A DNA stretch of 35,913 nucleotides, taken from positions 1-35,913 of the forward strand of contig LXFE01001511.1 in NCBI GenBank assembly GCA_001929475.1, read 5' to 3'. How positions within the stretch are numbered: the stretch's first letter is position 1; every line of letters starts with the position of its first letter. The translations under genes were made by a program, and so were the position numbers. Source of the stretch: Neolecta irregularis DAH-3 (taxonomy: Eukaryota). The notes under the pieces are model-generated. The model was not told where the DNA came from, did no database searches, and was given only the letters and a program-made list of their open reading frames with translations. This document shows, piece by piece, positions 1 to 35,913 of this stretch.

Positions 1-92
1 CAAGTCTATTCAAGTCCAAACAAGCAAGTCTAAATTTTGGACTTGCTTACTTGCTTATTTTTGTCCCTTATAAACAAGTAAGCAAGCAAGTC
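1..92. repeat. CAAGT/ACTTG subterminal-type repeat cluster, probably the end of a non-autonomous DNA transposon
   Basis: Many CAAG(T/C)AAG units and their reverse complements, with an internal inverted repeat AAGCAAGTC...GACTTGCTT. The same motif family occurs at 4156-4245 and 35792-35913. Confidence 0.6.
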
Positions 93-4155: not shown

Positions 4156-4245
4156 CTAGGGAGTGGATATAAGCCAAGTATCCAGAATATTTCAGGCCTT
4201 TGGACTTGCTTGCTTGGACTTGGTAGCATACTTGGACTTGCTTGA
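4156..4245. repeat. Second copy of the CAAGT/ACTTG repeat family
   Basis: AGTGGATATAAGCCAAGT followed by TTTGGACTTGCTTGCTTGGACTTG, resembling AGTGGAAATAGCCAGACTTG...TTTGGGCTTGCTTACTTG at the right window end. Confidence 0.6.
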
Positions 4246-4259
4246 TAGATTTTTAGTGT

Positions 4260-8946: not shown

Positions 8947-9041
8947 GGTTCTATAGTGTAGTGGCATCACATCGGATTTTGAAAACCTGTAGAGCGTTTG
9001 AAACCTTTCCGGTAACCCGGGTTCGAATCCCGGTAGGACCT
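8947..9041 (+). tRNA. tRNA-Gln(UUG) with a 24-nt intron (8983-9006)
   Basis: Acceptor stem GGTTCTA/TAGGACC, D arm with TAGTGG, anticodon stem TCGGA/TCCGG with TTG at 8979-8981, T-loop GGTTCGAATCC, and a T-rich Pol III terminator downstream. Confidence 0.93.
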
Positions 9042-10958: not shown

Positions 10959-13005
10959 ATGGCCGAAGCTTTAAAACAACAAGGTACTTGGCTAGTTTAT
11001 ATTAGAACTATTCCCACTAACATTTCCAGGGAACGCTGCGTTCGCCGCCAAGGAATTTCCTCGTGCAATTGAATTTTTCACTCAAGTATCCTTGTTCGAA
11101 GATCTGCTGCTGAATCCTAAAGGCAATCGAAATCGACTCCCAGAATCATGTACTTTATTCTAACCGCTCTGCTTGTTACGCCTCACAGAAAGAATGGCAG
11201 CAAGCTGTTGAAGATGCCGAAAAAGCAATCCAGATAAAACCTGATTGGGGTAAAGGTTGGAGTCGGAAAGCTTCTGCATTGCATGGACTTGGAGATTTAG
11301 GTATGTAGTCCTACAACTTGATCTGCTAAATGATAGTTGGAGCGAAAGATAGTTACGAAGAAGGCTTGAAAGTCGATTCCACGAATGCACAGTTGAAAGC
11401 TGGGTTGGAAGCAGTCAATGATGCGATTCAAAAGGAGGCTCAAGAAGATGGAATTGATGCAGATATGGGTCTTGGGAAGGTGTGTTACTCATCATGATAC
11501 CCCTAATATGTAGATGTTTGCGGATCCAAATCTCTTTGGAAGAATTGCTGCAAACCCAAAGCTTGCACCTCTTCTCGCTGACTCGGATTTCATGAATAAG
11601 CTTCGGCGAGTTCAGCAGAATCCAAAGCTCATTCAGCAAGAGATGCGCGATCCTCGAATGATGAGTGTCCTTGGCATGCTACTCGGTGTTGATATTCAAA
11701 CTCCTGATGTTTCAAGCCTAAAATGTCCTCAGCTGACCTTGTAGATCCCAATGCCTGATGTTACTCCAATTCCAAGCACAGAAACTTCTAGCAAGGAAGA
11801 TTCCAAGAAACAGCCCGAGCGCGAACCCGAGCATATAGATGAGGACTCGAAGGATGAGTTGGAAAATAAGAAAAAGGCAGAAGCCGAAAAAGCACTTGGG
11901 AATGCGGCATACAAATCTAGAAATTTCGACGAAGGTTTATCTCAAGTTTTTATAATGAAATTGACATATAGCTATTCAGCATTATACCGCCGCCTACGAC
12001 ATTCACAAAGAGATGACTTATCTTACCAACCTGGCTGCAGTCTATTTCGAACAAGAAGAATACCAAACATGTATCGAGACTTGCGAGAGAGCTATTGAAG
12101 AAGGTCGAGAAGTCCGCACCGATTTCAGGACTATGGCCAAGTATAATCATCATTCATAGCAACTACCCTAAATGATAATAGGGCCCTTGGACGTATTGGA
12201 AGCGCCTACATGAAACAGAACGATTTCGATAAGGCTATCAAATACTTCAACAAATCACTGACTGAACACCGTACTCCAGATATCCTAAGCAAACTTCGTG
12301 ATGCTGAGAGACTTAAAAAGGACGCAGAAGTTGCAGCATATATTAATCCAGAAGAAGCGGAGAAAGCTCGGATCCAAGGAAATGAGCAGTTTAAGAAAGG
12401 CGACTTTGTTGGCTCCGTCAAAAGCTATACCGAAATGGTCAAACGTGCTCCCCAAGACGCCAGAGCATATGGAAACCGAGCAGCAAGCTATATCAAACTT
12501 GCTGCTATGCCTGATGCTCTGAAGGTATAGCCTTTTCGTCGTAAATGTTAACCTCAATAGGACGCGGAAACAGCAATATCCATCGACCCAACTTTTGTCA
12601 AAGCTTATATTCGGAAAGTTTCTGCCCTTCTTGGTATGCGCGAGTATGCAAAGGCCCAAGCTGCGCTTGCGGAAGCTCGTCAGGCAGATACAGAAGGAAA
12701 TCATACTGGTGAACTGAATAGTCTTGAGCAAAAGATTATCATGGCCATGTATGGCCCTGCGGAAGGCGGATCTGAGGCGGACGTTCAAGAACGTATTGAA
12801 CGGGATCCAGAACTTTCTAGAATATTAGCGGATCCAGTTATGAGGAGTATTCTGGAGCAGGCTAGGAACGATCCCGCTGCGCTGAACGTAAGTTGATACT
12901 TTCAGAATATGTGGCTGATATATCTTATAGGAACATATGAAGAATCCGATGATCCGTGAAAAGATTATGAGATTGGTTTCGGCAGGCGTTATTAAGACGA
13001 GATAG
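10959..13005 (+). CDS. STI1: Hsp70/Hsp90 co-chaperone Sti1/Hop (TPR and DP domains), multi-exon
   Basis: [78 protein letters not shown] and the ending [10 protein letters not shown]. Confidence 0.96.
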
Positions 13006-13675
13006 CCAGTTATTAAACTGAACAAATTCGAAATTTTAAGTATGATTGATAAAATATATATTTGTCTTGATTAGTCTTCGGTTTGATTATCCCTCCAGGT
13101 AAAGTGCCCTACAACCCTGTGGCACGGAAATGATTCAAGTAATCTAATAGAGGAAATTTCTCCACAAATGGGAGTTTCTTCTTTTGTCTTCCTTTTCTTT
13201 GGTATTTGCTAGACGGCTAATGTGACTATTCGTTTTCTATGAGTAGGACCGTAGTTGCTCTTTGTTTCGGTTGTCGATATGCTCTATCTGTTCAAGCCAA
13301 GAATCAATTCTTTTGTTTTTTCTAAGCCATACTGTAATCTCTCAAAACTCTACACCGACGAGCTGTGTGGTGCAATCTGGTTTTTATATCTTCAAGTGAA
13401 AGGTTTAATACCAACGCGTCTATATTTCAGAAAGATGTCATCTCGAGGTTCAAGAATGGGGAGTTTCTAGTGCTCAGTTGAATTGATTATGAAGCAAGAA
13501 TAAAGCTATTTCCTCAGAAAAAATATTGAACAAGATGTTCTCGTTGCATGATGATCAGATTGAAACATATTTTCGGGCTTGAAAGAAACAGTGGCTAGTA
13601 CTTCATTCCTCTCAAGAAAACTACTCCTATTTCGCTAAACCTCGACAATCTCCAAAAGTCATTGTACATGAATTT

Positions 13676-14193
13676 TCAAAACAATTCAGTTATCATTTCT
13701 AGGAAATTCTTTTTGACGTCTTTTGCTTTGAACGTCACCTTCAAACAACCTTGCGGAATTTTCTCGGCCAAACTCCATTGCCATAACCCCTGTGTGCATC
13801 TCAAGAACGTGATTTCTTCATTATTCAGAAAGACCTTGAGATTGTTTCGACTATCTCGAGTCCACTCTCGGCCTTCATTTCTCTCAATTTCTCCCAAGAG
13901 AGGGCTTGGAAATTTGTCTGGAACTGCTATAGGTTGATACCTACTGTCATATAACTGGCCCTGGTAAAAATATAATTTTTCTCTCTCGTTATCTTCAATA
14001 AGGTGTGACAGCCGGAGATGGAGATCCTTGTCCACTCTGAAAATCATGCTGTCTACACGAGCACTCAGAATAACCTTTCGTTAAGTTAATAGCAGAGATT
14101 ATTGGATACCTCGTGTGTTGATATCTGCTTATGAAGGTATTCTAGAGTACCGAAATTATACAGAGGCATGATCAATGGCCCGGTCAGATCCAT
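13676..14193 (-). CDS. Hypothetical protein of about 160 aa, 2 exons
   Basis: ATG at 14193, then a 35-nt GT-AG intron (14109-14075) joining in frame to the 123-aa ORF. Composition is protein-like but there is no recognisable domain; the true 5' end is uncertain. Confidence 0.4.
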
Positions 14194-14359
14194 ATCTTGT
14201 GTATATCAGCAGAAAAGGAGGACCCTCTCAATTTGAAGTGTTGACAGGAGGTAGAGACTATGTCTCAAACTTTTGAAACATAAGGTTTCCGATGTTCCAT
14301 TTGATTTCAAATGCTTGACATTCTTTCTACTCGAATGTATTAGCCTTACAGATAATTAC

Positions 14360-15775
14360 CATGTGGAGGGAAGGATGACATCAAATCTTTTTCGGGAATC
14401 TAAAAATATTTGTGCACAAAATCTATTGGCATTATGACTCCCTCGTCTTTTGCCACCAAGAGAGTCTGTTGAGCATATCTTTATCTTACCATTACGTAAG
14501 GAAGGCTTGCAATGACATCGCGGCATTTTAATTTGTACTATCACAGGTAGATAGGAGTTCACACCTGGCAAAGTTTATGTCATTGGCTTGTATAAACCTG
14601 GTCTTATTCCTACCCGAGCTTCAACACTTACACTCTGCACATTTAAAAGATTCTCATTAAAGGAATTTTAATCTGCGAATTTACGTCGAATCTCCTGCAT
14701 TTCCCTTTAAAATTTCGAGAGGAATAGCTTGGTGAGAATGTGTTTAATTTCTCATACACCAATACTCTCTGTAAGCTTGAAACATGCAAGCTGTAATTTC
14801 AGGTAGGTTTCAGGGACTTTGACTTTTCTTCTCACTTGGAGATTCAATTAATTGGAGGAAGTGTGGTTTTGGTTTCCTCAAGGCTGAGATTTGGATAGAG
14901 AGCTTGTAGAGATTATAAAGGAATTAAAGAGGGTATACTGTGACTATGCGAAAAGACTAGCTCCAGGCCCATATTTATAGACCCAGTATTCTCCTACCCA
15001 GAAGAGAGGCGAGAAAAGTAGTTGAGAAAAGAGAAAGATACAAGGAAAATATTTGGTGCAGAAAAAAGGAGGTGAAGAAGAGAAATGACTATTAGGTGCT
15101 TAGTGCCATACTGCCAAAGAGACTCGGGCCAGGATTAGGAAACTCCATTTTCCGGAAGAAAGGGGTTTCCGAATGATGGTTGTTGCAGGGGAGGGAAAAG
15201 GGGTGAGTGTTGTTGTTGATTGCGAGAAAGGTTTGAGAGTCCGACCTTAAAGGAAAGAGGGGGGCAGAGTATGTCTTTTAGGCCGTGGGAGAGAGCGGAC
15301 AGGGAGGGGAAATGCAAAGGTTTGTATTAAGCGATGGCATGCCGGAACGACTGAGGGTACAGGTCGAGGGGAATTATGGCAGCGAGTTAATAGTGCGGTG
15401 AGGTGACGGGAGGTTTGGTGATGAAATTGTGTAAAATTTGTGTCTCGTACAACAAGCTTAATGCCTGAAGTTACAAATAAGACCAGGTTATATTCTAGCC
15501 CACGTGTTGCAGTTAGGGTTAGAAATAACTCTATACTCTAGTTTTAATGCCCGGCCTTTCGTGGGCGAAATATTATCCTACGCCTTCTTGCCGTATTGGT
15601 AAGGTAACCCTTTTGGGTATATCCGTACACTCCCGTAGTCTGCAATTCAATGAGTATACCTGTTGCAGTGATTTGCCTTTGGTATAGGTAATAGATATTG
15701 CTTATGGGTAAATCTTTTGTTTCAAGACACCAAGCTACGACTTCAGCATTCAGATTTCAAGATATCCATCTCGTC
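14360..15775 (-). ncRNA. Candidate telomerase RNA (TER) with template 5'-CUAACCCUAAC-3' at 15522-15512
   Basis: About 1.4 kb lacking any convincing ORF. The 11-nt TTAGGG template is enclosed by nested long-range helices: 15476-15489/14595-14608, 15582-15603/14485-14506, 15626-15632/14471-14477, 15690-15701/14416-14427 and 15752-15770/14374-14388. A 5' splice site and branch point follow. Ends are approximate. Confidence 0.7.
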
Positions 15776-16573
15776 GAACCTGGATAAAACTGGCAAGTTT
15801 GTAAAATATAACCTACAGTATTCTATATGGAATAGCTTGAGAATCGCACCTAGTATTCGTATGTCAACCTGTAACACACAGGGTGCAATAGTAGAGCTTT
15901 GCAGACTTAGATGGCCTGTATAAACCGAGAAAAACGAGGGTTAGGATTCCTTTGCTGAATGAATAGAGCATTATTCACCGGTCCTACAAGCAGGCAGCTA
16001 CAGGTCTACTTATAAGAAACAGAAATGGCCGCATCGGTTATAGAAACCTAGACTTTGACCAAAGGAAAAGCCAAACTAGAGACCCCTTTAAAATATCCTC
16101 AAAAGATTACAATATCATTTTCGTTCCACAAACGAAGTCAATCAAAGGATCAATGTGCAAATTCTGCGCCAACGTGCTATAGCAGAAACAAGAGCGCTTT
16201 CAAATAACCGTAGAATATTGTTCACTGGATTGAAACATCCGGGCTATGTCTACCGCGGCATCTGCGCCGTCTTTTTCACTGCAATCCAAGTGGGAAAAAA
16301 CTGTGTTTCATCTATCACAAGTGCTACAGACTAAAAGGAAACTGCGTGCCTTTTCGCACCCCGAGTGGCCTCTGGGCACTTATATTTCAACGGATAAATT
16401 GACTCGGCGCTAGTTGGTTCAAGGATCCATTCTAGCCGAATTGCGAAACTTGAACTGACTCCTGAGTGTTTGCTTGCCACGTCGCACGGGTATTATGAGA
16501 TCCTGTTTTCTGGCGGTTGTATTTAAATACCCGCTGTACTATCATCATCTCACAAACAACCACTCCTATCAAA

Positions 16574-18668
16574 ATGGCACTCCATCCGGGCCGAGTCCAC
16601 CATAAAACACAGAGTGCTTTTGTGCGCCCTGGCAAAAGTTTCTGTCTCACAATTAGGCATTCGACAATCAATCCACAAGTGTGGCCGCGGCTCAGATGCG
16701 CAATGAACTCAGTAAGATTGCAGAATCCATCAAAGAACCAAAGACTAGAAAGGTATTTCGTTCATATACTATTTTGTCGTCTCTTTGGTTTGGCAATAGA
16801 GTGGCCTGCAGTGATGTTGCTCTCTTTATCGGTGGTCTGTTGACATGGAACTGATTCGACATCTAATTTCTCTTGCCACTCTCATGGCAGGCAATACATC
16901 TCCAGTCATATTGACAACTGGACAACTGAGTGACTTTTGTAGTTCGTACCTGTATCGCAAGTTTTGCAGATCCGCCAAGGTAGTCTTGCGAACCAAGATC
17001 TTTTTACTCTATTCCTAGCGCGGGGTAGATCTCCACTCGGGAATAAAAATGAAACCAGGGGTCTCTGTAGATCTGCAATTGGTGTCCACTTGCTCAAATT
17101 CTATCTCTTCTTTCTTTCCCCCAATTTTCAGCTTGTGGTTTAACTTTTAGGCTTTCGAAATTGAAATGGATAATTTCTTTGCACTCTTCCGACGATATCT
17201 GATTGATAAGGCAAAGGGAACCAAAATGTAAATATTCATCATGTTCTGTAAACTAACTTGCAGCGAATGGGATAGAATTCATCCTCCAAAAAAGGAGCAG
17301 GTCATTGACTATGATACTCTGTCCGGAAGTGCACCAGAGGAATTTCTTAAAAGACTTGCTGTTCTCAAATTGAACGGTGGTCTTGGTACCACAATGGGCT
17401 GTGTGGGCCCAAAAAGTGTCATTGAAGTTCGAGAAGGAAATTCTTTTCTTGACCTTAGCGTTCGGCAAATCGAGGTACTTGACAACCTTCAACGCAATTG
17501 TAAAGTCATAGCATCTTAACAGAACCTATGGCGTCTCAGTCCCGTTTGTTTTGATGAACAGCTTCAATACCGATGAAGATACTTCCAGAATCATCAAGAA
17601 ATACGAGGGTCACAATATCGAAATTCTGACATTCAACCAATCAAGATTTCCTCGTGTTTTAAAAGATTCCCTCCTCCCCGTCCCTAGGGAGTACGATTCT
17701 GCGAAATCTGAATGGTATCCACCCGGCCATGGCGATGTCTTCGAAGCGCTCTCCAACAGCGGTCTCCTGGATCAACTCATTGCAAAGGGAAAAGAAATAC
17801 TCTTCGTCTCAAACATCGATAATCTAGGCGCCGTTGTCGACCTCAGAATTCTGAGCCACATGGCTTCGTCACAGTCGGAATATTTAATGGAGCTCACTCA
17901 AAAGACAAAGGCAGATGTTAAAGGAGGGACCTTAATCTGCTATGATGATACAGTACGTCTTCTAGAAATTGCTCAAGTTCCAAGTCAACACATCGAAGAA
18001 TTCAAAAGCATCAAGAAATTTAAATATTTCAACACAAACAACATTTGGCTGAACCTGCATGCAGTGAAACGAGTTGTCGAAAACAATGAACTAGAAATGG
18101 AAATCATTCCCAACTTTAAAACTCTCACATCCGATAAAAAGGGAGAAAACGATCAAAGTATAATTCAGCTCGAAACTGCCGTAGGTGCAGCAATCCGCTA
18201 CTTTAAGAATGCTCACGGCGTCAATGTGCCTCGCAACCGATTTTTGCCTGTGAAGACTTGTTCGGATCTGTTACTAGTCAAATCGGATTTGTTTAAACTT
18301 AAACATGGACAACTTGTCATGTCGGAAGAACGATTTGGTCCGGCTCCTATCGTTAAATTGGGGGTAGATTTCAAAAAAGTCAGTGATTTTCAAAGGCGGA
18401 TACCTGCCATACCTAAAATTTTAGAATTGGATCACTTGACTATTACCGGTGCTGTCAATCTCGGTCGAGATATCGAATTTCGAGGTGGCGCTTGTTTATG
18501 TGCGAAAGATTGATCTTTAGGTACTGTAATCATTGTTGCGAGTGATGGCAGTCGGATTGATATCCCGAATGGAAGTGTCATTGAGGTATCTTGATTTCCG
18601 ATAGAAAAAGTTGCTCATCAGCCTAGAATCAAGTGATCACCGGGAATCTAAGAATCCTTGAGCACTAG
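16574..18668 (+). CDS. UGP1: UTP-glucose-1-phosphate uridylyltransferase
   Basis: [54 protein letters not shown] and the ending [10 protein letters not shown]. Includes a 398-nt second intron (16753-17150). Confidence 0.97.
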
Positions 18669-28998: not shown

Positions 28999-31761
28999 AT
29001 GTTCCGACCATCCGCGAAATCTACCTACGCATGTTTGCGCTGTCAAATTCGACAGAGAACTAAAAGTGCGATGCAACCGGCGACCATTGATGGTGTTTCT
29101 TTCCGTAATGCTCTGCGGCAAGCCATATCGCTTGAACCGAAAAACAGTCAGCAAGTATATCAAACAACACCCCAGCCAGACCCGTTTGGTCGGACATTGA
29201 GACAATCAGCACAAGGTATTATTCTCGACAATACGTTTGCTCTTTCTCAACCTTGTAATGGTGACACCGCTAAAGACGCGCCCTTTGCTCTTGGGGCAGG
29301 ATCGACCGAAAATCATTCGGCTCGCAGGCAGGTAGCCTTCCGAGAAAAACTTGCTCAATCGTTAAAAACGACTATTGGGATTTCAGAGGAGTGGTGCTCT
29401 GTGCCATTTCCTGATGTCGGCGAAGTAAGTGAAGAATCCGCTGTCCTAGAGATTAAACCCGGTGACCTGGTTGAAATAAGGAGGGGGTATCTATTTCCCA
29501 CGGCCCTGTGATGATTGACTGCTAGCAATGGAGTGGCAGTATTAGCAATTCGAATCCCTTTTACAAAGGTCACAGACATGAACATCAAGGCATATTTGAC
29601 AACTCGGGCAAAGACAATCTATCAGACGGATTGGGCAGTAAGTTTTCGGATACCTGGGTTTGTCTCCCCAGAAATAGCAGAGAAACTTGGTACAGATGAT
29701 TGTGTTCCTTTGACCAACCCTTATCTCTCTCGCGTCGTTCATCCACTGCGCAAGTTTGATACAGAGTCATGGGAGTTTGCATCTACAAAGATCGGAGCCG
29801 TCGAATCTGTTCATGATCAACTAACTGCAAAGAAAATTACCACCCTCGAGATGGCAGAAACGTTATTCGGAAAAGATCCATCTCCACAAATGATTTATGC
29901 TACACATCTTCTTCTGATGCGGGATCGGAAACGATTTGTTGCTGACCCAACCAAAATGAGACAGAGCATGACATTTGATGTCAGACCTTCTAAACGAGTC
30001 GTCAATATGGAGAAGGTTACAATGTGGATTAGAGAAATGACTTCCGAGGTGACATCGTTCATTGTGAAGGCGAATCGAGTTGTAAAGAATCGAAAATCAG
30101 AGAAATGGTGTGAAGAAGACAAGCTCATAATTGAGTATTTCAAAGCTTATATTCTCGAACGTAAACAACTTCAGACGAGTCTTTTCCAATCTTACGTTCC
30201 TTCAATTCTCCGCAGGATAGATGACTATCAATCCAAATTCCTTGATCGAGGAATGGCATTCCAATTCCTCAAGGATATTGGAATATTTTCCAACTACGAG
30301 AACCATGACCTTCAAGATCCTAAAGTTAATATTTACCCATTCTCTGGAGAGATTGGAAAATTGTTTGATACAATAACTCACCGGGAGACTATTCGAAGAA
30401 GAGTATATATAATCGATGCACCCGATGCGAAAGAACTGGATGATGCAATTTCATATGAGAATGTAGAAGGAAAAGAATGGATACATATCCATATTGCAAA
30501 TCCAACTGCTTACATGCCCCAAAATTCTCCAGTTGCTCTTGACGCTAGAAATCGGGCTTCGACGATATATTTGCCGGAAATCACGGTTCCAATGTTACCA
30601 GAAGAAATTGCAACGGGGATCTTCAGCCTTCAAAAGGGTTCTCCAGTGTTAACTTTCTCCGCTCGGATTAATAATGACGGCGAGGTTATCGATTACAAAA
30701 TATCCCACGGGGTTTTGCAGAATGTAAAGCAAATTACTTATGACCAACTCGATCACCTTCTTGCTGGATTGAAACCTGCAGAGCAGTATGAATGGTTTGT
30801 TGGCTCTAAGAAACCTTCGAAAGTCCACTTTCAGCCCGCTGTTCTTGAGAAGGGTGAAATCGAGACGCTCAAAGCCATTCAGAAATTTGCTCAAAGGATC
30901 CTTGAGCGAAGAATCAGGGATGGATTTGTCTCATTTGACAACCCGGCATACATCGTCAGCGTATCACCGAATCCATTATACCCCACACATCATGATTCTA
31001 CCATCTCGAAATTCTCACAGAATGAACCGGTTGTTAGTCTGAAGGTTGCTCATGAATGCGGACTTTCGCGGCCAGCTGGCATCCTCGTTTCGGAATTAAT
31101 GATCCTTGGAGGTCAGATTGTGGCAAGATATTGCAATCAGTACAATATACCAAACGCTTATCGTACACAGGGTTTGTCTCAAGAACCTGAATTCATGACT
31201 GAATATCACAATGCTCTTCGCAAACGAAACTCAGTGGGATTGGTACCAACTGAATTTGCTCTTCCATTGATGAAATATTTAAAACCAGTAATGTTGAGTC
31301 TCAAGTCGGGTCGTCACGAAATGCTCGCAATCGACTGTTATACGAAAGCGACAAGTCCGCTTCGTCGATTCGGCGATATGGTGGTTCACTATCAGTTGGA
31401 CGCTCATCTCTCTAACCAAATACTACCCTTCACCACGGAACAAATTCAAAAAGAAATGAATCCTTTAGCGTGGCGCGAAAGCGCTGTAAATAATCTTTCG
31501 AGAATGGGCAATAAGCATTGGATATGCCAATTACTAAATCGTCTCTCTGGCTTAAAAGATTTCACGTTTGAGGGAATGATTTATATAAGCAACACCGCGG
31601 ATGTCCCAGTCCCCTGTTTGGCGAAGGAACTGGGAACCAGAGTCGAAGTATCGGGAATTCCGCTGGCGGACAAGCATCTTGGAAGGCGGCTCAAATTTCG
31701 AATTCAGGATGTAGACCTGTTCCAGCACAGTATTCATGGAGAGTTTATTGTGTTCATTTAG
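28999..31761 (+). CDS. DSS1: Mitochondrial RNase II/RNB-family exoribonuclease (Dss1/Cyt-4-like), 2 exons
   Basis: Presequence-like N-terminus, IDAPDAKELDDAIS, HIHIANP, TIYLPE and YTKATSPLRRFGD. One intron near 29487-29525. Confidence 0.88.
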
Positions 31762-35791: not shown

Positions 35792-35913
35792 CAGTGGAAA
35801 TAGCCAGACTTGCTATTAAGTAAGTAAGTCCAAGTCTGGCCTTTGGGCTTGCTTACTTGCTCATTTTGGCCATTAAGACTTGCTTACTTGTTAATTTACT
35901 TGCTTACTTGATA
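35792..35913. repeat. Third copy of the CAAGT/ACTTG repeat family, running off the window end
   Basis: CAGTGGAAATAGCCAGACTTG, an imperfect inverted repeat AAGTAAGTAAGTCC...GGCTTGCTTACTT, and repeated ACTTGCTTACTTG. Confidence 0.65.

What the first reader, a model, noticed from the sequence alone, without database searches (positions are those of the whole stretch)
14360..15775. Candidate telomerase RNA gene: CUAACCCUAAC template inside a nested set of long-range helices
Seen in sequence: the minus strand of this apparently non-coding gap carries 5'-UUUCUAACCCUAACUGC-3' (template at 15522-15512, 1.8 TTAGGG repeats). Five pairings surround it in correctly nested order. (1) Just 3' of the template, AACCUGGUCUUAUU (15489-15476) pairs perfectly over 14 bp with AAUAAGACCAGGUU (14608-14595), closing an arm of about 870 nt. 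(2) CUUACCAAUACGGCAAGAAGGC (15603-15582) pairs with GCCUUCCUUACGUAAUGGUAAG (14506-14485), about 19 bp, and encloses the template core. (3) GAGUGUA (15632-15626) pairs with UAUGCUC (14477-14471). (4) GCAAUAUCUAUU (15701-15690) pairs with AAUAGAUUUUGU (14427-14416). (5) GAUGGAUAUC-UUG-AAAUCU (15770-15752) pairs with AGAUUUGAUGUCAUC (14388-14374). The G-U wobbles in helices 3-5 work only on the template-bearing strand, which argues for a folded RNA rather than DNA inverted repeats. Established knowledge: ascomycete TERs are 1-2 kb Pol II RNAs with a template-boundary element, template, long variable arm, pseudoknot and core-enclosing helix, and they are usually missed by annotation. The 11-mer is identical to the human TR template. 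Inference: this is the organism's TER. I could not identify a canonical U-A-U triple-helix pseudoknot or a P6.1 hairpin by eye, and I cannot say whether this locus has already been described.
Basis: partly seen in the sequence, partly recalled or inferred. Interest (0 to 1): 0.92.

Follow-up and report, generated by a model that had tools for sequence, protein, structure and literature searches.

The report
Candidate telomerase RNA gene in Neolecta
A gene-free stretch of a Neolecta irregularis contig carries the exact human-type telomerase template inside two strong long-range RNA helices and is a plausible but unproven telomerase RNA gene for this little-studied fungal lineage.

Summary
The window is a whole 35,913-bp contig of Neolecta irregularis DAH-3 (Taphrinomycotina). 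The sequence facts hold. CTAACCCTAAC occurs exactly once (minus strand, 15522-15512). It lies between the right arms of two nested inverted repeats, one 14/14 and one 21/26. A nested pair of that strength appeared in 4 of 750 shuffled windows.

Helices 3-5 are weak, and helices 3 and 4 have zero probability in the folded ensemble. The G-U strand argument fails, because helix 2 and the whole region fold better on the plus strand. The overall fold is no better than shuffles (z -0.51).

Downstream, in fission-yeast TER1 order, I found four more features:
- a three-way-junction-like domain holding the only P6.1-like hairpin in 1.5 kb;
- a drawable but non-significant U-rich pseudoknot;
- two near-consensus Sm sites;
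- a well-formed 33-nt Neolecta-type intron.

An orphan annotated gene, NEOLI_001518, follows on the same strand.

No Rfam telomerase family matches. No RNA-seq run, genome or close relative was reachable, so expression, copy number, telomere sequence and covariation are untested.

Verdict: telomerase RNA is the best single explanation (about 0.55). If true it is a new member of a known kind.

The parts
14360..15775 (-). Candidate telomerase RNA exon. The 5' end is not mapped. The 3' end would lie between the Sm-like sites and the 5' splice site at 14359.
   Evidence: No ORF here is in the protein collection.
15512..15522 (-). Template-like CUAACCCUAAC (1.8 telomeric repeats)
   Evidence: the only exact copy in 35,913 bp on both strands. 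Mean unpaired probability is 0.36 against a mean of 0.485 over all 11-nt windows.
15476..15489 (-). Helix 1, 5' strand. It pairs with 14608-14595 and extends imperfectly to about 15501/14584.
   Evidence: -19.7 kcal/mol; pair probabilities 0.42-1.0
14595..14608 (-). Helix 1, 3' strand. It closes an arm of about 870 nt.
15582..15607 (-). Helix 2, 5' strand (core-enclosing; 21/26 complementary)
   Evidence: -22.6 on minus, -25.9 on plus; p 0.92-1.0
14481..14506 (-). Helix 2, 3' strand. It contains the palindrome TTACGTAA at 14492-14499.
15498..15566 (-). The 7-bp helix GCCCACG (15566-15560) / CGUGGGC (15504-15498) closes a loop that holds the template.
   Evidence: (I17), (p 0.72-0.74)
14510..14585 (-). 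Three-way-junction-like domain. P5-like 9-bp helix 14585-14577/14518-14510; P6-like hairpin about 14567-14544; P6.1-like hairpin UGUG-AUAG-UACA at 14545-14534.
   Evidence: The P5-like helix has p 0.47-0.79 and the P6.1-like hairpin p 0.00. The descriptor hits 8 of 300 shuffles.
14823..15044 (-). Drawable triple-helix pseudoknot. Stem 2 is CUUUUCU 15018-15012 / AGAAAAG 14829-14823. The parallel third strand is UCUUUUC 15032-15026. Stem 1 is 15044-15038 / 14974-14968.
   Evidence: Not significant: 33 of 100 block shuffles and 10 of 100 global shuffles also give a hit.
14400..14423 (-). Two near-consensus Sm-like sites: GAUUUUGUG at 14423-14415 and AUUUUUAG at 14407-14400.
   Evidence: Read. The consensus AU5-6GR comes from PMC3603654. 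Each site misses it at one position.
14327..14359 (-). 33-nt intron-like element: GUAAUU ... GCUAAUA ... GUAG
   Evidence: It matches the form of real introns in the window (34-43 nt). The post-hoc strict pattern has a chance rate of 0.07 per kb per strand.
13676..14193 (-). Context: annotated orphan gene NEOLI_001518 (160 aa, with one 35-nt intron at 14109-14075), directly downstream on the same strand.

Best explanation
The minus strand from about 15775 to about 14360 is the gene for the telomerase RNA (TER) of Neolecta irregularis, a Pol II transcript of roughly 1.4 kb. Inferred mechanism:
- CUAACCCUAAC (15522-15512) templates TTAGGG repeats.
- Helix 2 (15607-15582 / 14506-14481) acts as the core-enclosing helix.
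- A 7-bp helix (15566-15560 / 15504-15498) and helix 1 bracket the template.
- An arm of about 870 nt holds the U-rich/purine-rich pseudoknot region.
- A three-way-junction-like domain (14585-14510) would bind TERT.
- The 3' end is made as in fission yeasts, by Sm binding plus spliceosomal cleavage at the 33-nt intron (14359-14327).

Shown: the sequence elements and their order. Inferred: transcription, every function, and the identity of Neolecta's telomere repeat.
For: 1. There is one exact 11-mer in the window. A. fumigatus and N. fischeri TERs use the same template (PMC3603654, section read).
2. It lies in the 2.4-kb gap between the start codons of NEOLI_001518 (14193) and UGP1 (about 16573). 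The genome is compact: 14.5 Mb and 5,546 genes (PMC5309816 passages).
3. Two nested IRs enclose it. A nested pair occurs in 4 of 750 shuffled windows. Both helices have p about 1 in the ensemble.
4. The only P6.1-like hairpin in 14300-15800 sits next to a hairpin inside a perfect 9-bp helix. That descriptor hits 8 of 300 shuffles.
5. Sm-like sites lie 41-58 nt upstream of an intron that fits the window's own introns. 5' splice sites 14-27 nt downstream of the Sm site are reported for other fission yeasts (PMC4299874 passages).
6. The order template, long arm, TWJ, Sm, intron matches S. pombe TER1, where the TWJ is at nt 1029-1090 of the RNA (PMC3592445 passages).
7. Taphrina, another member of Taphrinomycotina, has TTAGGG telomeres (PMC7036362 passage).
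8. The downstream 'gene' is an orphan. Among 1.84 billion representatives it found only itself plus three weak matches, and the two checked are bacterial Ig-repeat proteins.
Against: - No telomerase family matched in Rfam at the gathering threshold or at E up to 10.
- The MFE z-score of the 1,424-nt RNA is -0.51 (25 shuffles). The plus strand folds 61 kcal/mol better.
- Local folds of four sub-domains give z from -0.94 to +0.04.
- Template accessibility is at the 29th percentile.
- H3 and H4 have p = 0.
- There is no P6.1 with the 5-nt NUNGN loop. The 4-nt-loop variant has p = 0.00 and competes with the longer P6 hairpin.
- The looser TWJ descriptor hit 46% of shuffles.
- The pseudoknot descriptor hits 33 of 100 composition-matched shuffles. 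The pseudoknot would also sit deep inside the helix-1 arm, not beside the template.
- The loose intron pattern occurs by chance 1.77 times per kb per strand.
- A TATAAATA box (about 14977-14970) and a C/T-rich tract (15410-15000) inside the 'RNA' look promoter-like.
- The supporting descriptors were defined after seeing the sequence.
Confidence: 0.55

Rival explanations
1. Ordinary intergenic DNA: the shared upstream region of UGP1 and NEOLI_001518. The 11-mer is a chance match and the two inverted repeats are DNA-level features, either an old inverted duplication or protein-binding palindromes. No telomerase function.
For: From base composition I estimate about 7 chance copies of the 11-mer in a 14.5-Mb genome (my arithmetic; genome size). 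Each IR alone is at chance level. The spacing between the two IRs is nearly equal on both sides (89 and 93 nt), and helix 1 extends as an imperfect repeat, as expected for an inverted duplication. H2 is more stable on the plus strand. TATA and C/T-rich promoter-like sequence lies inside the region. There is no fold signal and no Rfam hit.
Against: The joint coincidence is small. The only template copy lies inside the only nested IR pair, which occurs in 4 of 750 shuffles. The 60 nt between the two IRs show no convincing similarity. The gap is unusually long for this genome. A leader starting at the TATA box would carry 12 or more upstream AUGs by my count of the sequence. The TWJ-like, Sm-like and intron-like elements would all have to be coincidences too.
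Confidence: 0.27
2. A non-telomerase transcript: a long structured 5' leader with an intron, or an upstream non-coding RNA, belonging to or regulating NEOLI_001518. The template match is chance.
For: The intron-like element at 14359-14327 lies upstream of the NEOLI_001518 start codon on the same strand. The genome paper says 99.4% of gene models have RNA-seq support (PMC5309816). The TATA box at about 14977 could drive such a leader.
Against: There are many upstream AUGs: 3 between the intron and the start codon, and 12 or more further up, by my count. This reading does not explain the template or the helices that enclose it.
Confidence: 0.12
3. Relic of a foldback or MITE-like transposon of about 1.13 kb, bounded by degenerate terminal inverted repeats (14481-14608 and 15476-15607).
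For: Two IR blocks have matching spacing on both arms.
Against: I saw no target-site duplication in the flanks (alignment). There is no second copy of either arm in the window at up to 3 mismatches, apart from one chance-level hit. There are no tandem repeats. The window shows no excess of IRs over shuffles. Genome-wide copy number could not be tested.
Confidence: 0.06

Closest known systems
Schizosaccharomyces pombe TER1 and the TER1s of other fission yeasts (Taphrinomycotina)
   Same: Size class is about 1.2-1.4 kb. The order is template, large pseudoknot domain, three-way junction near the 3' end, Sm site, then an intron used for 3'-end formation (PMC3592445 and PMC4299874 passages).
   Different: The template type differs, with TTAGGG here. 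The Sm-like sites are imperfect and lie 41-58 nt from the 5' splice site, against 1-27 nt in fission yeasts. The intron has none of the reported features that block the second splicing step (GUCAGU, AU 5' splice site, long branch-to-3' splice site distance). No sequence comparison was possible.
Saitoella complicata TER (Qi et al. 2013), the only non-fission-yeast Taphrinomycotina TER in the papers I read
   Same: It belongs to the same subphylum. It was found in the same way, as a template match plus structural patterns, because BLAST fails at this distance (PMC3592445 sections 13 and 19).
   Different: Its identification required a match to a P6/6.1 covariance model and a pseudoknot HMM. I could not run those models because they are in supplements and a database that were not available.
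Pezizomycotina TERs (Neurospora crassa 2,049 nt; Aspergillus species)
   Same: They are TTAGGG-type. A. fumigatus and N. fischeri carry the identical 11-nt template. They have core-enclosing helices and spliceosomal 3' processing.
   Different: There is no Rfam or sequence match here. Aspergillus has a template-boundary hairpin about 2 nt from the template, whereas here the nearest helix strand is 37 nt upstream. Their 5' splice site is AUAAGU, whereas here it is GUAAUU. Aspergillus TERs lie between Zpr1 and a TATA-box-interacting protein gene, which is a different synteny.
Human telomerase RNA template
   Same: The 11-mer CUAACCCUAAC is identical (stated in PMC3603654).
   Different: Everything else differs. 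Vertebrate TRs are H/ACA RNAs of about 450 nt. The Rfam vertebrate model gave no hit.

Membership tests
Fungal telomerase RNA (TER/TER1) | Template of 1.5 or more repeats complementary to telomeric DNA | tested here: met
   CUAACCCUAAC occurs once, at 15522-15512 on the minus strand.
Fungal telomerase RNA (TER/TER1) | The template matches the organism's own telomere repeat | not testable with these tools
   No genome is held and no runs were listed. The contig has no telomeric array. Only Taphrina's TTAGGG is documented. The search for Neolecta with 'telomeric repeat' found 2 papers; I read passages of one and only the listing of the other, and saw no Neolecta telomere sequence.
Fungal telomerase RNA (TER/TER1) | Long-range core-enclosing helix around the template | tested here: met
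   H2 scores -22.6 kcal/mol with p 0.92-1.0. The nested pair with H1 occurs in 4 of 750 shuffles.
Fungal telomerase RNA (TER/TER1) | Template boundary helix just 5' of the template | tested here: inconclusive
   A 7-bp helix (p about 0.74) closes the template loop, but its 5' strand is 37 nt upstream of the template. Aspergillus has a hairpin about 2 nt away.
Fungal telomerase RNA (TER/TER1) | Pseudoknot with U-A.U triple helix | tested here: inconclusive
   One can be drawn, but 33 of 100 block shuffles and 10 of 100 global shuffles also give one.
Fungal telomerase RNA (TER/TER1) | Three-way junction with P6 and a 4-bp P6.1 stem carrying a 4-5-nt NUNGN-type loop | tested here: inconclusive
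   There is no 5-nt NUNGN hairpin in 14300-15800. One 4-nt-loop variant (AUAG) sits in a TWJ-like context. That descriptor hits 8 of 300 shuffles. The hairpin has ensemble p 0.00.
Fungal telomerase RNA (TER/TER1) | Sm site and spliceosomal 3'-end signal | tested here: inconclusive
   There are two one-off Sm-like sites and a well-formed 33-nt intron. The loose intron pattern is common by chance (1.77 per kb per strand).
Fungal telomerase RNA (TER/TER1) | Match to curated telomerase RNA covariance models | tested here: not met
   No telomerase family matched at the gathering threshold or at E up to 10. This is expected to be insensitive at this distance, since BLAST failed for S. complicata.
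Fungal telomerase RNA (TER/TER1) | Stable transcript associated with TERT; template mutations are copied into telomeres | not testable with these tools
   No RNA holder was listed.
Fungal telomerase RNA (TER/TER1) | Conservation and covariation of template and helices in relatives | not testable with these tools
   No close relative was reachable. The next-best RNase II hit has 26% identity. The best metagenome UGP1 loci have 77% identity. 1 of 80 loci carries TAACCCTAAC.
Foldback/MITE transposon | Terminal inverted repeats with target-site duplication and multiple genomic copies | tested here: inconclusive
   IRs are present. I saw no TSD, and there is no other copy in the window. Genome-wide copy number is not testable.

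The most novel reading that the evidence does not exclude
The telomerase RNA of Neolecta is made from a bifunctional Pol II transcript. TER is exon 1. A 33-nt intron (14359-14327) releases it by first-step spliceosomal cleavage. The same transcription unit runs on into the spliced orphan 'gene' NEOLI_001518, which is either a non-coding second exon mis-annotated as a protein or a real small ORF coupled to TER output.
Probability: 0.15. Interest if true: 0.7.

Novelty: new member of a known kind. Interest (0 to 1): 0.45.

Why it matters
Neolecta is the only lineage with complex multicellularity among the early-diverging ascomycetes. It sits between fission yeasts, with their divergent telomeres and TER1, and the filamentous ascomycetes, with TTAGGG telomeres and vertebrate-like TER cores. 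In the papers I read, one Taphrinomycotina TER outside fission yeasts is described (Saitoella). A search for Neolecta together with 'telomerase RNA' found only one unrelated paper. A confirmed Neolecta TER would add a data point on how the vertebrate-like pseudoknot/P6.1 core and spliceosomal 3'-end processing evolved in fungi. It would also give a covariance-model seed for other uncultured Taphrinomycotina. It would not overturn anything. The kind of molecule is well known.

Tried and rejected
- Whole genome: none is held, so copy number, other template loci and telomere arrays could not be examined.
- Sequencing runs: no RNA holder was listed. That says nothing about expression. Read laying therefore could not be used.
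- Earlier findings of the scan: nothing by place, sequence or words.
- Metagenome scan with the downstream ORF: 188 pattern matches, none a relative.
- Metagenome scan with UGP1: 80 loci kept of 382 relatives, best 77% identity, so none is a Neolecta relative. TAACCCTAAC occurs in 1 of the 80 loci, at chance level by my arithmetic, so TER-UGP1 synteny is not seen in those fungi.
- Aspergillus TER synteny (Zpr1 / TATA-box-interacting protein) does not match this locus.
- First UGP1 protein search: I ran it with lengths 'longer' by mistake. It still showed Pezizomycotina at 76% identity as the best fungal hits.
- Exact look-up of six gap ORFs: 0 of 6 are in the collection.
- Codon-usage scoring: it did not separate gap ORFs cleanly from control ORFs and is biased by ORF selection. 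I dropped it as evidence.
- First full fold with shuffles timed out. I repeated it in smaller pieces.
- In one search I gave wrong registers for the P5-like and template-enclosing helices. Those two zero rows are void and are corrected.
- RNAduplex search for pseudoknot stem 1 gave uninterpretable long bulged duplexes. I replaced it with the descriptor.
- Supplements of Qi et al. 2013 (Table S2, Figure S2 with the P6/6.1 alignment) were closed. They may hold the models that would settle membership.

Full report
**What the window is.** A search with a 748-aa ORF (29515-31758) returned a 100%-identical protein named 'putative ribonuclease [Neolecta irregularis DAH-3]', whose longest contig is 35,913 bp. 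The window is therefore a whole contig of that Taphrinomycotina fungus. The next-best hit had only 26% identity, so no close relative is in the protein collection. The genome paper reports a 14.5-Mb assembly, 5,546 genes, and RNA sequenced from fruiting bodies (PMC5309816, passages). No whole genome is held here. No sequencing run was listed. The scan had no earlier notes.

**Gene context.**
- A TPR/STI1-like gene runs on the plus strand from about 10996. Its last exon ends near 13000.
- UGP1 is on the plus strand. Its N-terminal exons start at about 16573 and its main exon is 17512-18513.
NEOLI_001518 (OLL23530.1, 160 aa) lies on the minus strand: exon 1 at 14193-14110, a 35-nt intron at 14109-14075, and exon 2 ending at 13676.
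- NEOLI_001518 has no Pfam domain. Among 1.84 billion representative proteins it matched only itself plus three weak hits. The two I checked are bacterial Ig-repeat proteins. It is an orphan.
- The candidate therefore fills most of the 2.4-kb divergent gap between the start codons of NEOLI_001518 and UGP1.

**Check of the observation.**
- CTAACCCTAAC is at 15522-15512 on the minus strand. It is the only exact copy in the window.
- All five proposed pairings exist. Two are strong: H1 at 14/14 and -19.7 kcal/mol, and H2 at -22.6. Three are weak: -4.8, -7.8 and -9.2.
- A perfect 14-bp inverted repeat within 2 kb appears in 24 of 100 shuffled windows. The window has 3 IRs scoring 13 or more, against 3.08 expected. 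Neither strong helix is remarkable alone.
- Their nesting is remarkable. The arms lie 89 and 93 nt apart, and the arrangement appeared in 0 of 60 and 4 of 750 shuffled windows.
- The single template copy lies in the 93-nt interval between the two right arms.
- The 60 nt between the IR blocks are not convincingly similar, although H1 extends imperfectly to about 27 nt.

**Folding.**
- The 1,424-nt minus-strand RNA has an MFE of -316.1 kcal/mol, z = -0.51 against 25 dinucleotide shuffles. The plus strand folds at -377.5, z = +1.34.
- In the ensemble, H1, H2 and the inner 6 bp of H5 have probabilities near 1. H3 and H4 have 0.00.
- H2 is more stable on the plus strand (-25.9).
- The template's mean unpaired probability is 0.36, at the 29th percentile of all 11-nt windows. 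It pairs weakly with the 15 nt just upstream.
- A 7-bp helix, GCCCACG 15566-15560 with CGUGGGC 15504-15498, closes a loop around the template with p about 0.74.
- Four local sub-domains fold no better than shuffles, with z from -0.94 to +0.04.

**Search for defining TER elements.** I took the criteria from Qi et al. 2013 (sections 13, 18, 19 and passages), Kuprys et al. 2013 (sections 21, 23, 24 and passages) and Kannan et al. 2015 (passages).

a. Three-way junction.
   - The only hairpin in 14300-15800 with a 4-bp stem and a NUNG-type loop is UGUG-AUAG-UACA at 14545-14534.
   - It abuts a hairpin at about 14567-14544. Both lie inside a perfect 9-bp helix, 14585-14577 with 14518-14510, which has p 0.47-0.79.
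   - A descriptor for this arrangement hit 8 of 300 shuffles of the region and three other places in the 72 kb of both strands. A looser descriptor hit 46% of shuffles.
   - The loop has 4 nt, not the NUNGN 5-mer. The hairpin has zero ensemble probability.

b. Pseudoknot.
   - A triple-helix-capable H-type pseudoknot can be drawn in the C/U-rich tract. Stem 2 is 15018-15012 with 14829-14823. The parallel third strand is 15032-15026. Stem 1 is 15044-15038 with 14974-14968.
   - The same descriptor hits 33 of 100 composition-preserving block shuffles and 10 of 100 global shuffles.
   - The structure would sit deep in the helix-1 arm, far from the template.

c. 3' end.
   - Two near-consensus Sm sites (14423-14415 and 14407-14400) precede GUAAUU...GCUAAUA...GUAG at 14359-14327.
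   - This 33-nt element has the form of the window's genuine introns, which are 34-43 nt with YTRAY branch sites and mostly UAG ends.
   - A strict pattern, chosen after seeing the sequence, has a chance rate of 0.07 per kb per strand. A loose one has 1.77.

d. Rfam: no telomerase family matched at any threshold tried.

**Comparative evidence was not obtainable.** A metagenome scan with the downstream ORF found no relative. A scan with UGP1 kept 80 loci, with a best identity of 77%, and none is a Neolecta relative. Only 1 of the 80 carries TAACCCTAAC. Aspergillus TERs lie in a different neighbourhood.

**Weighing.**
- For telomerase RNA: a unique human-type template sits inside a rare nested pair of long-range helices, in an unusually large gene-free gap of a compact genome. 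A TWJ-like domain, Sm-like sites and an intron follow in the order seen in fission-yeast TER1. An orphan 'gene' lies downstream.
- Against: there is no thermodynamic fold signal, no accessible template, no canonical P6.1, no significant pseudoknot and no model match. Promoter-like TATA and C/T-rich sequence lies inside the proposed RNA. Several supporting descriptors were written after seeing the sequence.
- From base composition I estimate about 7 chance copies of the 11-mer in 14.5 Mb (my arithmetic). The template alone is therefore weak evidence. The co-location with the nested helices carries most of the weight.

**Probabilities.** I put telomerase RNA at about 0.55, ordinary intergenic DNA with a chance motif and DNA-level inverted repeats at about 0.27, an unrelated leader or non-coding RNA at about 0.12, and a foldback-element relic at about 0.06.

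**Novelty.** No paper in the library links Neolecta to a telomerase RNA. The search with 'Neolecta' and 'telomerase RNA' found one unrelated paper. The search with 'Neolecta' and 'telomeric repeat' found two: I read passages of one, and of the other I saw only the listing. Neither gave a Neolecta telomere sequence in what I saw. If real, this is a new member of a known kind. The boldest reading still open is that TER and the downstream orphan ORF share one spliced transcription unit.

Noticed in passing
window 15937-15945 (minus strand): A second telomere-like motif, CCUAACCCU (1.5 repeats), lies about 170 nt upstream of the proposed 5' end on the same strand. I estimate a chance of roughly 1-2% within 1 kb (my arithmetic). 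It could mean that the transcript starts further upstream, or it could be coincidence.
   Followed up: no
window 13676-14193 (minus strand): NEOLI_001518 is an annotated 160-aa orphan with a 35-nt intron. It has no real homologue among 1.84 billion representative proteins. It may be a non-coding exon or a lineage-specific small protein.
   Followed up: partly
window 25-64 and 35831-35901: Both contig ends carry copies of the same repeat of about 37 nt (CAAGTCT...CTTGCTTACTTGCT...), 84-86% identical, with a weaker copy at 4232-4259. This is probably a dispersed repeat that broke the assembly.
   Followed up: no
window 8947-9041 (plus strand): A tRNA gene scores 55 bits in Rfam and spans 95 nt against a 71-position model, so it is probably an intron-containing tRNA.
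   Followed up: no
window 11300-17520 (STI1-like, UGP1, NEOLI_001518) and about 29490-29530 (RNase II gene): The introns I read in this contig (about a dozen) are very short, 34-43 nt. They have weak 5' splice sites (GTATGT, GTGTGT, GTTTAT, GTATCC and others), YTRAY branch sites, and mostly ATAG or GTAG ends.
   Followed up: partly
window 14492-14499: The left arm of helix 2 contains the perfect palindrome TTACGTAA. From memory this is a bZIP-type binding site. The right arm lacks it.
   Followed up: no
L077 4099-4108 (minus strand): This is the only one of 80 metagenome UGP1 loci with TAACCCTAAC. The motif lies about 5 kb upstream of UGP1 on the opposite strand. The count is at chance level by my arithmetic.
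   Followed up: no
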